From Escherichia coli (GTDB lineage Bacteria > Pseudomonadota > Gammaproteobacteria > Enterobacterales > Enterobacteriaceae): a stretch of DNA of 64,000 bases. The position numbers were made by a program. Below are positions 47,501-50,500 of this stretch, piece by piece. The stretch lies in the NCBI RefSeq assembly GCF_003018255.1, contig NZ_CP027440.1; one strand, written 5' to 3'. Within the stretch, counting starts at the first letter, position 1, and every line of letters starts with the position of its first letter.

Positions 47501-50500
47501 AGTGGCGAGGCCGTAAACTCCCGGTTCCTGATAGCCCAGGTCTGCGCCCCACCACCGACCGCGTACGCGAAACGTTGTTTAACTGGCTGGCTCCGGTCAT
47601 TGTTGACGCCCAATGTCTGGATTGCTTCGCCGGGAGCGGCGCGCTGGGGCTGGAAGCGTTGTCGCGCTATGCTGCGGGGGCCACGTTGATTGAGATGGAT
47701 CGCGCGGTTTCTCAGCAGTTAATTAAGAATCTGGCGACACTAAAAGCAGGCAATGCACGCGTGGTGAACAGCAACGCAATGTCATTCCTGGCGCAAAAAG
47801 GCACACCGCATAATATCGTGTTTGTCGATCCACCGTTCCGCCGTGGCTTGTTAGAAGAGACGATAAATTTACTGGAAGATAACGGCTGGCTGGCTGACGA
47901 AGCCCTGATTTATGTCGAAAGCGAAGTCGAAAACGGTCTGCCCACTGTTCCGGCAAACTGGTCATTACATCGGGAAAAAGTGGCGGGTCAGGTGGCTTAT
48001 CGGCTGTATCAACGCGAAGCACAAGGAGAAAGTGATGCTGATTAATATTGGTCGTTTGTTAATGCTCTGCGTTTGGGGATTTTTAATCCTCAATCTGGTG
48101 CATCCCTTCCCGCGCCCGCTGAATATTTTCGTTAACGTGGCGCTGATTTTTACCGTGCTGATGCATGGTATGCAGCTGGCGCTATTGAAATCCACTTTAC
48201 CTAAAGATGGCCCGCAGATGACCACCGCCGAAAAGGTGCGGATTTTCCTTTTCGGCGTGTTTGAACTGCTGGTCTGGCAGAAGAAATTTAAAGTTAAAAA
48301 ATAACCTTATTGTTCGCCTACAAAGCTAACAAAGCGCGTTCCTTTATAGCTCAGCGTACCTATATCGCCCACTGTCAGGGCATGGTACTGCTGAGCGTCG
48401 AGGCGAAACGTCTGCTCCATTCCTCCGCTTTGCGGTTTGAAGCTTGCCTCGTAGCGCATACTGGTGCCTGCCGGAGTCACTTCCTGCTGGCGCGAACGGC
48501 GATCGTTAATCGGTTTTTCCCGCTTGTTGCTCACCACCACCAGCTTTTGCTGGAGCGGAGCCATATCATTATCAGCTTTTTCCCGTCGCTGTTGCATAAA
48601 ACGAAACGATGCGGCGACGACAATTAAGCCAATGATAACAATAAAGAAAAGAGGTGGTTTGCTCATCTTTATCCCTCATCGGAAAATGCGGAAATAAGCA
48701 TACCCTGCCAGTTATGGTGTTGTCATCCGTCCACCCTCGCCACTAAACTGGAAGCAAGACCGTAGGCATTCCGCTTACGAAAAAATAACGAATTCAAGGA
48801 ACTAAGATGCTTTGGTCGTTTATCGCTGTCTGTCTTTCCGCATGGCTATCTGTGGATGCATCGTATCGTGGGCCAACCTGGCAACGCTGGGTGTTTAAAC
48901 CGTTAACCCTTCTTCTCCTGCTGTTACTGGCCTGGCAAGCGCCGATGTTCGACGCCATTAGCTATCTGGTGCTGGCAGGGCTGTGCGCCTCACTGCTGGG
49001 CGATGCGCTAACCCTGTTGCCACGTCAACGTCTGATGTACGCCATCGGCGCGTTTTTCCTCTCGCACCTGCTGTACACCATCTATTTTGCCAGTCAGATG
49101 ACGCTCTCTTTCTTCTGGCCTCTGCCACTGGTGTTGCTGGTTCTGGGTGCGCTGTTACTGGCGATTATCTGGACGCGTCTGGAAGAGTATCGTTGGCCTA
49201 TCTGCACGTTTATCGGCATGACGCTGGTGATGGTGTGGCTGGCAGGTGAACTGTGGTTCTTCCGTCCGACAGCTCCGGCGCTCTCTGCGTTTGTCGGCGC
49301 TTCGTTGCTGTTTATCAGTAACTTTGTCTGGCTGGGTAGCCACTATCGCCGCCGCTTCCGGGCAGATAACGCGATTGCTGCGGCCTGCTACTTTGCCGGT
49401 CATTTCCTCATCGTCCGCTCGCTGTATCTCTGATAAAACTTGACTCTGGAGTCGACTCCAGAGTGTATCCTTCGGTTAATGAGAAAAAACTTAACCGGAG
49501 GATGCCATGTCGACTCCTGACAATCACGGCAAGAAAGCCCCTCAATTTGCTGCGTTCAAACCGCTAACCACGGTACAGAACGCCAACGACTGTTGCTGCG
49601 ACGGCGCATGTTCCAGCACGCCAACTCTCTCTGAAAACGTCTCCGGCACCCGCTATAGCTGGAAAGTCAGCGGCATGGACTGCGCCGCCTGTGCGCGCAA
49701 GGTAGAAAATGCCGTGCGCCAGCTTGCAGGCGTGAATCAGGTGCAGGTGTTGTTCGCCACCGAAAAACTGGTGGTCGATGCCGACAATGACATCCGTGCC
49801 CAGGTTGAATCTGCGGTGCAAAAAGCAGGCTATTCCCTGCGCGATGAACAGTCCGCCGACGAACCACAAGCATCACGCCTGAAAGAGAATCTGCCGCTGA
49901 TTACGCTAATCGTGATGATGGCAATCAGCTGGGGTCTGGAGCAGTTCAATCATCCGTTCGGGCAACTGGCGTTTATCGCGACCACGCTGGTTGGGCTGTA
50001 CCCGATTGCTCGTCAGGCATTACGGCTGATCAAATCCGGCAGCTACTTCGCCATTGAAACGTTAATGAGCGTAGCCGCTATTGGTGCGCTGTTTATTGGC
50101 GCAACGGCTGAAGCTGCGATGGTGTTGCTGCTGTTTTTGATTGGCGAACGACTGGAGGGCTGGGCCGCCAGTCGCGCGCGTCAAGGGGTCAGCGCGTTAA
50201 TGGCGCTGAAGCCAGAAACCGCCACGCGTCTGCGTAACGGTGAGCGTGAAGAGGTGGCAATAAACAGCCTGCGGCCTGGCGATGTGATTGAAGTTGCGGC
50301 AGGTGGGCGTTTGCCTGCCGACGGTAAACTGCTCTCACCGTTTGCCAGTTTTGATGAAAGCGCCCTGACCGGAGAATCCATTCCTGTGGAGCGCGCGACG
50401 GGCGATAAAGTTCCTGCAGGCGCCACCAGCGTAGACCGTCTGGTAATGCTGGAAGTGCTGTCAGAACCGGGTGCCAGCGCCATTGACCGGATTCTGAAAC

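What the first reader, a model, noticed from the sequence alone, without database searches (positions are those of the whole stretch)
49440..49471. Textbook MerR-type long-spacer promoter upstream of zntA
-35 TTGACT and -10 TATCCT are separated by 20 bp containing a perfect 10-bp-arm inverted repeat (CTCTGGAGTC/GACTCCAGAG). This matches the ZntR operator expected at zntA and serves as an internal check that regulatory motifs can be recovered from the sequence.
Basis: partly seen in the sequence, partly recalled or inferred. Interest (0 to 1): 0.2.

Follow-up and report, generated by a model that had tools for sequence, protein, structure and literature searches.

The report
Known ZntR-controlled zntA promoter
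This is the well-known zinc-sensing switch in front of the E. coli zinc-export pump gene zntA, base-for-base identical to the laboratory-strain version, so it is ordinary and serves mainly as a positive control for the scan.

Summary
Window 49440-49471 reads TTGACT, then 20 bp, then TATCCT. The palindrome is perfect, but it is 22 bp (11+11, 49443-49464), not 10+10, and it overlaps the last 3 bases of the -35 hexamer. It is the only perfect palindrome with arms of at least 10 bp in the 64 kb (about 0.03 expected for arms of 11). The whole yhhN-zntA intergenic region is identical to E. coli K-12 MG1655 and to 5369 of 5425 complete E. coli genomes. The gene 36 bp downstream is ZntA. The 22-mer equals the published ZntR site consensus, described as lying within a 20-bp spacer. 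Orthologous promoters in Citrobacter, Enterobacter, Photorhabdus and Vibrio keep the 20-bp spacing and the dyad, with matching changes in both half-sites. Mechanism, from the literature and not tested here: a ZntR dimer binds the dyad, and when zinc-loaded it distorts the over-long spacer so that sigma-70 RNA polymerase can use both hexamers. One side observation: a strong inverted repeat (49465-49479 / 49491-49505) pairs the -10 region with the ribosome-binding site. It could form only in RNA reading through from yhhN. Its function is unproven.

The parts
49440..49445 (+). -35 hexamer TTGACT (5 of 6 to the TTGACA consensus)
   Evidence: Identical in K-12. TTGAC is invariant across E. coli, Citrobacter, Enterobacter, Photorhabdus and Vibrio. 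PMC3431237 names TTGACT as the PzntA -35.
49443..49464 (.). ZntR operator: perfect 22-bp palindrome ACTCTGGAGTC|GACTCCAGAGT (11-0-11). It overlaps 3 nt of the -35 hexamer and ends 1 nt before the -10 hexamer.
   Evidence: It equals the ZntR site consensus printed in PMC1526738. Both half-sites change together in Vibrio and across 64 metagenomic variants.
49446..49465 (+). 20-bp spacer between the hexamers, 3 bp longer than the 17-bp optimum
   Evidence: Counted directly. A generic sigma-70 scan limited to 16-18 bp spacers does not find this promoter. The 20-bp spacing is kept in four other genera. It is also kept in 49 (TAnnnT) to 60 (nAnnnT) of 70 distinct metagenomic sites with the same dyad core.
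49466..49471 (+). -10 hexamer TATCCT (4 of 6 to TATAAT, including the A at position 2 and the T at position 6)
   Evidence: Reading the sequence directly, only the 20-bp register puts an A at hexamer position 2 and a T at position 6. The registers at 17, 18 and 19 bp give GTGTAT, TGTATC and GTATCC.
49478..49479 (+). Predicted transcription start (an A residue 7-8 nt after the -10 hexamer). Inferred, not verified here.
   Evidence: Inference from standard -10 to +1 spacing. The primary mapping papers (Brocklehurst 1999, Outten 1999) are not in the held library.
49497..49501 (+). Shine-Dalgarno sequence GGAGG, 5 nt before the ATG
   Evidence: Conserved as GGAG(G) in 14 enterobacterial variants.
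49507..51705 (+). zntA, the Zn(II)/Cd(II)/Pb(II)-exporting P1B-type ATPase (732 aa), the gene this promoter controls
   Evidence: NF033775, 1449.8 bits, residues 1-732 of 732. RefSeq annotation of matching genomes.
48807..49433 (+). yhhN, the upstream gene on the same strand. Its stop codon lies 6 bp before the -35 hexamer and no + strand terminator lies in between.
   Evidence: The terminator scan finds no + strand site between 49433 and 49507.
49465..49505 (+). Side observation: inverted repeat GTATCCTTCGGTTAA (49465-49479, includes the -10 hexamer) and TTAACCGGAGGATGC (49491-49505, includes the Shine-Dalgarno sequence)
   Evidence: As RNA it gives a 15-bp hairpin of -20.9 kcal/mol, z = -7.05 against 1000 shuffles. 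It is the most stable of 52 gene-upstream 43-mers in the window. Its function is unproven.

Best explanation
Window 49440-49471 is PzntA, the sigma-70 promoter of the zinc/cadmium/lead efflux ATPase gene zntA, with its built-in ZntR operator. Its -35 (TTGACT) and -10 (TATCCT) hexamers are 20 bp apart, too far and out of phase for RNA polymerase to use both, so the bare promoter is weak. A homodimer of the MerR-family regulator ZntR is encoded about 165 kb away in K-12, outside this window. It binds the 22-bp palindrome that fills the spacer, on the DNA face opposite to the polymerase. Without zinc it holds the promoter at a low level. With Zn(II) (also Cd, Pb) bound, it kinks and under-twists the centre of the dyad. 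That shortens and re-phases the spacer so that sigma regions 4 and 2 engage both hexamers, and zntA is transcribed from about 49478. Shown here: the sequence anatomy, identity to the K-12 promoter, the identity of the gene, and conservation of the spacing and of the two-fold symmetry. Taken from the literature: ZntR binding, zinc dependence and the DNA-distortion mechanism. Inferred: the start site.
For: The anatomy is exact. The palindrome is unique in the window and far beyond chance. The region is 100% identical to MG1655 across the intergenic region. The 73-bp intergenic region is 100% identical in 5369 of 5425 E. coli genomes, whereas the 341-bp stretch that includes coding flanks is >=99% identical in only 843. 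The downstream gene is ZntA. Cross-genus footprint: in the alignment the conserved block coincides with 49440-49471, while the flanks diverge. The spacer is 20 bp in Citrobacter, Enterobacter, Photorhabdus and Vibrio, and Vibrio has the same TC-to-CT change in both half-sites. Among 70 distinct metagenomic sites with the core TTGAC-NN-TGGAGT-NNN-CTCCA-NN-GT, TAnnnT sits at exactly 20 bp in 49 and at 19 bp in 5. The unconstrained dyad positions are complementary more often than in shuffles: 42/64 against a mean of 28, and 32/64 against a mean of 16.5. A MerR-like gene lies nearby in 53 of 80 loci. zntR is present in 5425 of 5426 E. coli genomes. Literature: the ZntR site consensus and 20-bp spacer (PMC1526738); the 20-bp spacer and DNase I protection by ZntR (PMC3431237); zinc-dependent switching from repression to activation at PzntA (PMC9189660); DNA distortion by apo- and Zn-ZntR (PMC2611976); the general MerR kink mechanism, and CueR and ZntR activating with heterologous polymerases (PMC9909328).
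Against: Nothing in the sequence argues against it. Some gaps remain. ZntR binding, zinc response and the start site were not and cannot be tested with these tools. The primary papers were not readable here. zntR itself is not in the window. One paper states a 19-bp spacer for PzntA (PMC9189660), which disagrees with a direct count of 20 and with the other sources. No ZntR-DNA or ZntR-polymerase structure exists in the PDB copy searched; only the fragment of residues 43-141 is there. How the extra base pair relative to 19-bp MerR promoters is absorbed is therefore extrapolated from CueR, BmrR and EcmrR.
Confidence: 0.96

Rival explanations
1. The palindrome is primarily an RNA hairpin, either an intrinsic terminator or 3'-end stabiliser for yhhN or a terminator for antisense transcription, and its position between promoter-like hexamers is incidental.
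For: As + strand RNA it folds into a 9-bp stem with a 4-nt loop, -14.9 kcal/mol, z = -2.9. It starts 10 nt after the yhhN stop codon. The terminator scan flags it on the - strand, where a T-run follows (ACTCTGGAGTCGACTCCAGAGT CAAGTTTTAT).
Against: On the + strand, the strand of yhhN, no T-run follows the stem (GTATCCTTCGG). No - strand gene ends here, because zntA is on the + strand. In Photorhabdus the dyad lies 190 bp beyond yhhN, and in Vibrio there is no yhhN upstream. In both the dyad keeps its exact register with the -35 and -10 hexamers and its place before zntA. The 22-mer equals the ZntR site consensus.
Confidence: 0.03
2. It is a long-spacer MerR-type promoter, but it is served by a different MerR-family regulator of E. 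coli (for example CueR) rather than ZntR.
For: The architecture is shared. The K-12 copA promoter reads TTGACC, 19 bp, TAACCT, with a dyad that starts at the same position in the -35 hexamer and ends 1 nt before the -10 hexamer.
Against: The half-site sequences differ completely: ACTCTGGAGTC here against ACCTTCC in copA. The dyad matches the ZntR consensus exactly. The downstream gene is the Zn/Cd/Pb pump, not a copper pump. The literature reports zntA as the only known ZntR target, and PzntA as responding to ZntR titration and to a zntR knockout (PMC9189660).
Confidence: 0.01
3. It is a chance co-occurrence of a palindrome and hexamer-like words with no function.
For: The hexamer-plus-spacing pattern alone is at chance level in the window, 2 found against 3.0 expected.
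Against: The expected number of palindromes with arms of at least 11 bp is 0.03 per window. The region is near-invariant in 5425 genomes while its flanks vary. Spacing and symmetry are conserved as far as Vibrio.
Confidence: 0.002

Closest known systems
PzntA / ZntR operator of Escherichia coli K-12 (Brocklehurst et al. 1999; Outten et al. 1999, as cited in PMC3431237 and PMC9909328)
   Same: Everything. All 73 bp between the yhhN stop codon and the zntA ATG are identical to MG1655. That includes -35 TTGACT, the 22-bp dyad, the 20-bp spacer and -10 TATCCT.
   Different: Nothing within the promoter. The window comes from a non-K-12 strain, with two synonymous-type differences in the last 40 nt of yhhN.
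PcopA / CueR operator of E. coli K-12
   Same: It is a MerR-type long-spacer sigma-70 promoter in front of a P1B-type metal-efflux ATPase gene. The dyad begins at position 4 of the -35 hexamer and ends 1 nt before the -10 hexamer, and the regulator gene is unlinked. The activation mechanism has been solved by cryo-EM (6LDI, 6XH7).
   Different: The spacer is 19 bp, not 20. The dyad is 21 bp with an odd centre (ACCTTCC-N7-GGAAGGT), against 22 bp with an even centre here, so the extra base pair of PzntA lies at the dyad centre. The half-site sequence differs, and the metal is Cu(I)/Ag(I)/Au(I).
PmerT / MerR of Tn501 and Tn21
   Same: It is the founding example of activation by spacer distortion. 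The -35 TTGACT is identical (PMC3431237), and a dyad operator sits between the hexamers.
   Different: The spacer is 19 bp and the dyad is 7-4-7. merR is adjacent and divergently transcribed, the system is borne on transposons, and it senses Hg(II) (PMC1526738; PMC7911910).
CadR/PbrR-type promoters of P-type ATPase genes (Pseudomonas, Cupriavidus)
   Same: They are MerR-family divalent-metal sensors controlling cadA/zntA-like pumps through a dyad in a long spacer. CadR is the closest full-length solved relative of ZntR (6JGV, E = 1.3e-24).
   Different: The spacer is mostly 19 bp and the dyad sequence is different. One example is TTGACC-CTGTAGTTGCTACAGGGTG(19)-CAGTAT in the Hyphomicrobium locus L007.

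Membership tests
MerR-family (ZntR) long-spacer promoter-operator | Sigma-70-like -35 and -10 hexamers separated by a supra-optimal 19-20 bp spacer | tested here: met
   TTGACT, 20 bp, TATCCT at 49440-49471. It is invisible to a scan limited to 16-18 bp spacers.
MerR-family (ZntR) long-spacer promoter-operator | Dyad-symmetric operator occupying the spacer between the hexamers | tested here: met
   A perfect 11-0-11 palindrome at 49443-49464.
MerR-family (ZntR) long-spacer promoter-operator | Operator sequence matches the ZntR recognition sequence | tested here: met
   It is identical to the consensus ACTCTGGAGTCGACTCCAGAGT printed in PMC1526738 and to K-12 PzntA.
MerR-family (ZntR) long-spacer promoter-operator | Controls a metal-detoxification gene immediately downstream | tested here: met
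   The zntA ATG is 36 bp after the -10 hexamer. NF033775 ZntA scores 1449.8 bits against a cut-off of 1240.
MerR-family (ZntR) long-spacer promoter-operator | Spacer length and two-fold symmetry conserved in orthologous promoters | tested here: met
   The spacer is 20 bp in Citrobacter, Enterobacter, Photorhabdus and Vibrio. The 20-bp register dominates 70 metagenomic variants. The free dyad positions co-vary symmetrically. Caveat: those sites are not phylogenetically independent.
MerR-family (ZntR) long-spacer promoter-operator | Cognate regulator gene zntR present in the same genome | tested here: inconclusive
   zntR is not in the window (no tblastn hit). In K-12 it lies about 165 kb away. 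It is present in 5425 of 5426 complete E. coli genomes. It is therefore almost certainly present, but the source genome of this window could not be inspected.
MerR-family (ZntR) long-spacer promoter-operator | Regulator footprint over the dyad and metal-dependent activation of transcription | not testable with these tools
   Known only from the literature: DNase I protection by ZntR (cited in PMC3431237) and the zinc-dependent switch at PzntA (PMC9189660; PMC2611976).
MerR-family (ZntR) long-spacer promoter-operator | Transcription start 6-8 nt downstream of the proposed -10 hexamer | not testable with these tools
   Predicted at 49478-49479. The primary mapping papers are not held.
Rho-independent terminator (considered for the palindrome) | G+C-rich hairpin followed by a U-tract on the strand of the gene that ends upstream | tested here: not met
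   The hairpin forms, but on the + strand GTATCCTTCGG follows it. The T-run is on the - strand only, where no gene ends.
Known structured RNA families (Rfam) | Match to a curated covariance model at the gathering score | tested here: not met
   The only hit is a chance one: mir-1179, 20.4 bits against a gathering score of 80, E = 0.13.

The most novel reading that the evidence does not exclude
The promoter itself is not novel. The most novel reading not excluded concerns the adjacent inverted repeat (49465-49479 / 49491-49505). Its 5' arm contains the -10 hexamer and therefore lies upstream of the zntA start site. The resulting 15-bp hairpin, which buries the Shine-Dalgarno sequence, can form only in transcripts that read through from yhhN. 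It would act as a 'fold-back' insulator: ZntA would be translated only from ZntR-initiated mRNA and not from read-through RNA. The logic is analogous to the fold-back inhibition described for IS10 transposase (recalled from my own knowledge, not checked here).
Probability: 0.15. Interest if true: 0.4.

Novelty: already known. Interest (0 to 1): 0.08.

Why it matters
For the scan, it is a clean positive control. A reader without tools recovered a real, experimentally characterised regulatory element at exact coordinates and interpreted it correctly. Biologically it adds nothing new about ZntR or PzntA. Two small points remain open. First, no ZntR-DNA or ZntR-polymerase structure is in the PDB copy searched. 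How a 20-bp spacer with an even-centred 22-bp operator is re-phased, compared with the 19-bp spacer and 21-bp operator of the CueR case, is therefore still inferred. Second, the -10-to-ribosome-binding-site hairpin, if functional, would show how a tightly metal-gated gene placed directly behind another gene, with no terminator between them, is shielded from read-through expression.

Tried and rejected
1. The generic sigma-70 scan (16-18 bp spacers) did not find the promoter. This is expected for a 20-bp spacer and is not evidence against it.

2. The hexamer-plus-spacing pattern alone is at chance level. The other hit, 40587-40618 on the - strand, has no dyad and was dismissed.

3. The primary papers (Brocklehurst 1999, Outten 1999) could not be read. 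The start site and footprint limits therefore rest on secondary citations.

4. The peptide-pattern scan of genome contigs was swamped by the generic P-type ATPase motif MVGDGIND. It returned only five close orthologues. Four of them were usable. The Shewanella upstream region (L005) showed no site in the stretch examined.

5. I considered a structured 5' UTR in the native mRNA. Folding 49472-49512 gives -6.7 kcal/mol and z = -0.69, so this was rejected.

6. I looked for covariation support for the -10-to-SD hairpin in 14 enterobacterial variants. The stem is conserved, but the covariation term is about 0 and only 2 pairs show compensatory changes, so the result is inconclusive.

7. The palindrome as a terminator was rejected (see rival explanations).

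8. Rfam found nothing.

9. Literature searches for a yhhN-zntA read-through or a zntA leader hairpin found nothing relevant. The one exception is a Yersinia pestis array study that treats yhhN-zntA as one co-regulated unit (PMC2231364).

10. The sequence GTCGACTCC from the operator is repeated in zntA codons 1-4. It is not conserved in Enterobacter and was judged to be chance.
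Full report
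OBSERVATION. Window 49440-49471 reads TTGACTCTGGAGTCGACTCCAGAGTGTATCCT. The inverted repeat is real and perfect. It is one base longer per arm than reported: ACTCTGGAGTC|GACTCCAGAGT, 11-0-11, at 49443-49464. It therefore overlaps the last three bases of the -35 hexamer and stops one base before the -10 hexamer, rather than sitting wholly inside the spacer.

It is the only perfect palindrome with arms of at least 10 bp in the 64-kb window. First-order Markov simulations expect 0.065 per window for arms of at least 10 and 0.03 for arms of at least 11. The 22-mer has no second match in the window at up to 3 mismatches. By contrast, the bare pattern TTGACN-N19/20-TANNNT is at chance level, with 2 found against 3.0 expected. 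A standard sigma-70 scan restricted to 16-18 bp spacers misses the site. Only the 20-bp register places an A at position 2 and a T at position 6 of the -10 hexamer. The registers at 17, 18 and 19 bp give GTGTAT, TGTATC and GTATCC, as can be read directly from the sequence.

CONTEXT. The window is E. coli chromosome. In this region, window coordinate + 3,556,944 equals the MG1655 coordinate. The site lies in the 73-bp gap between yhhN (48807-49433, + strand) and a 732-aa ORF (49507-51705, + strand). That ORF matches NCBIfam NF033775, 'Zn(II)/Cd(II)/Pb(II) translocating P-type ATPase ZntA', end to end, with 1449.8 bits against a cut-off of 1240. A GGAGG Shine-Dalgarno sequence sits at 49497-49501.

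COMPARISON WITH THE CHARACTERISED PROMOTER. The whole intergenic region is base-for-base identical to MG1655. The only differences in a 131-nt alignment are two positions inside yhhN. The 73-bp intergenic stretch is 100% identical in 5369 of 5425 complete E. coli genomes. The 341-bp stretch that includes coding flanks is at least 99% identical in only 843 of them. The one variant inspected has a single-A deletion in the A-run at 49484-49489, outside the promoter.

[quoted passage not shown] That is the window sequence. Hobman et al. state that the PzntA -35 is TTGACT. They also state that the MerR-family spacing is 19 bp 'except ZntR (20 bp)', and that ZntR gives DNase I protection like MerR and CueR (PMC3431237). 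PMC7911910 says the same. One paper gives 19 bp for PzntA (PMC9189660). A direct count contradicts this.

CONSERVATION BEYOND E. COLI. A scan of species-representative genomes with ZntA was dominated by generic P-type ATPase motifs. It still returned orthologous loci from four other genera:
- Citrobacter werkmanii carries the identical 32-mer.
- Enterobacter sp. Bisph1 keeps the -35 hexamer and the dyad, with -10 CATACT.
- Photorhabdus has TTGACT, 20 bp, TAGAGT, with an imperfect dyad.
- Vibrio bivalvicida has TTGACC, 20 bp, TACACT, with dyad ACCTTGGAGTA|GGCTCCAAGGT. The TC-to-CT change is mirrored in both half-sites.

In the multiple alignment the conserved block coincides with 49440-49471 and the flanks diverge. 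yhhN is adjacent in Citrobacter and Enterobacter, 190 bp away in Photorhabdus, and absent upstream in Vibrio. The dyad therefore tracks zntA and the hexamers, not the end of yhhN.

A metagenome scan for TTGACNNTGGAGTNNNCTCCANNGT returned 80 loci with 70 distinct sites:
- TAnnnT lies at exactly 20 bp in 49 sites, nAnnnT at 20 bp in 60, and at 19 bp in only 5.
- The unconstrained dyad positions are complementary more often than in shuffles: 42/64 against a mean of 28.2 (maximum 41), 40/64 against 28.8, and 32/64 against 16.5 (maximum 31). This is as expected for a homodimer site. The caveat is that these sites are not phylogenetically independent.
- A MerR-like gene lies in the immediate context of 53 of the 80 loci.

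MECHANISM. The following is literature-based and was not tested here. A 19-20 bp spacer puts the -10 element 7-10 Å too far away and 72-108 degrees out of phase. Metal-loaded MerR-family dimers bind the dyad on the face opposite the polymerase and kink its centre by about 90 degrees, which restores a 17-bp-like geometry. CueR and ZntR activate even with heterologous polymerases, so a contact with the polymerase is not essential (PMC9909328). At PzntA, ZntR represses weakly at low zinc and activates about 10-fold at high zinc (PMC9189660). Both apo- and Zn-ZntR distort the DNA (PMC2611976).

zntR is not in the window. In K-12 it lies at 3,438,705-3,439,130, and it is present in 5425 of 5426 E. 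coli genomes.

Comparison with the K-12 copA promoter is informative. That promoter reads TTGACC, 19 bp, TAACCT, with dyad ACCTTCC-N7-GGAAGGT. Both dyads start at position 4 of the -35 hexamer and end 1 nt before the -10 hexamer. The extra base pair of PzntA is therefore at the dyad centre (22-bp even centre against 21-bp odd centre). The PDB copy searched holds only the ZntR fragment 43-141 (1Q08/1Q09/1Q0A) and no ZntR-DNA complex. How the extra base pair is absorbed remains inferred.

RIVALS. The palindrome folds as RNA (-14.9 kcal/mol, z = -2.9), and the terminator scan flags it on the - strand. However, no U-tract follows it on the yhhN strand, and no - strand gene ends here. Its register with the hexamers is kept even where yhhN is distant or absent. 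I rate the terminator reading at about 3%. Regulation by another MerR paralogue is excluded by the half-site sequence. Chance is excluded by the statistics and the conservation. Rfam has nothing here.

SIDE OBSERVATION. Directly after the operator, GTATCCTTCGGTTAA (49465-49479, including the -10 hexamer) is complementary to TTAACCGGAGGATGC (49491-49505, including the Shine-Dalgarno sequence). As RNA, 49464-49506 folds into a 15-bp hairpin of -20.9 kcal/mol, with z = -7.05 and 0 of 1000 shuffles as stable. It is the most stable of the 43-nt upstream regions of 52 putative genes in the window, whose mean is -6.6 with sd 4.2.

Because its 5' arm lies upstream of the predicted start site, it cannot form in PzntA-initiated mRNA, where the Shine-Dalgarno pairing probability is 0.28. 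It would form in read-through RNA from yhhN, where that probability is 1.0. No + strand terminator separates the two genes. The stem is retained in 14 distinct enterobacterial variants despite loops of different sequence and length. Covariation is weak, however: the covariation term is about 0 and only 2 pairs show compensatory changes. In Photorhabdus and Vibrio the Shine-Dalgarno sequence is not sequestered.

A fold-back insulator against read-through is therefore a hypothesis only, at about 15%. The alternative is coincidence between promoter-proximal and ribosome-binding-site constraints. I found no description of it in the held library, which does not prove novelty.

VERDICT. The element is the already known ZntR-dependent zntA promoter, identical to that of K-12. 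Interest is low. Its value is as a positive control for the first-stage reader.

Noticed in passing
window 49465-49479 and 49491-49505 (loop 49480-49490): A strong inverted repeat pairs the -10 hexamer region with the Shine-Dalgarno region of zntA. As RNA it gives a 15-bp hairpin of -20.9 kcal/mol (z = -7.05), the most stable of 52 gene-upstream regions in the window. It can form only in RNA that starts upstream of the -10 hexamer, that is, read-through from yhhN. It may insulate zntA translation from read-through. The stem is conserved in 14 enterobacterial variants, but covariation is weak.
   Followed up: partly
window 49434-49506: The 73-bp yhhN-zntA intergenic region is 100% identical in 5369 of 5425 complete E. 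coli genomes. The surrounding 341 bp is at least 99% identical in only 843. The constraint therefore extends over the 35 nt downstream of the -10 hexamer (leader and ribosome-binding site), not only over the 32-bp promoter.
   Followed up: partly
window 49451-49459 and 49509-49517: GTCGACTCC, from the centre and right half of the ZntR operator, recurs in zntA codons 1-4 (ATG TCG ACT CC), with 11 of 12 matching over GTCGACTCCnGA. It is nearly kept in Citrobacter and absent in Enterobacter, so it is probably chance or a coding constraint.
   Followed up: partly
L088, L102, L106, L107, L118, L141, L155 and L006, about 10-30 nt after the -10 hexamer: Most non-E. coli Enterobacteriaceae zntA leaders carry a conserved inverted repeat, TAATGA-GAAAATTA-TCATTA. 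It is AT-rich and reminiscent of a Fur or Zur box, but with different spacing. E. coli (TAATGAGAAAAAACTTAACC) and Citrobacter werkmanii lack it. It could be a 5'-terminal mRNA hairpin or a second protein site. A Yersinia pestis array study listed yhhN-zntA among genes with a Fur-like box (PMC2231364).
   Followed up: no
L084-L162 (metagenome contigs): The same operator core (TGGAG-N4-CTCCA in a 20-bp spacer after TTGAC) is widespread in environmental contigs. It occurs in front of MerR-like genes (28 directly downstream, 14 divergent) and of small Cys-rich ORFs, for example L086, L127 and L158, which begin M-A/P-D-C-C-C-P-E-P. This points to a much wider ZntR-type operator clade than zntA promoters alone.
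   Followed up: partly
L034 2130-2161 and L055 2437-2468: Two cyanobacterial P-type ATPase loci (Microcoleus, Synechococcales) carry a long-spacer promoter-like site with a different dyad: TTGACA-TTGACATTAATGTCAAGGTT(20)-TAGGGT. The -35-like word is itself part of the palindrome.
   Followed up: no
window 20903-20920: This is the second-longest perfect palindrome in the window, ATTGTCCGGCCGGACAAT (9-bp arms). It lies immediately after two GntR-operator-like words (ATGTTACGGGTAAC, TGTTATCGGTAACAT), in what corresponds to the gntR-gntK region of K-12.
   Followed up: no
window 49484-49489; L081: The only E. coli intergenic variant inspected (strain N96) differs by loss of one A from the A6 run in the hairpin loop. 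This is consistent with slippage at a homopolymer in an unconstrained loop.
   Followed up: partly
literature, PMC9189660: This paper states that the PzntA spacer is 19 bp. A direct count of the K-12 and window sequence gives 20 bp, as other sources say (PMC1526738, PMC3431237, PMC7911910).
   Followed up: yes
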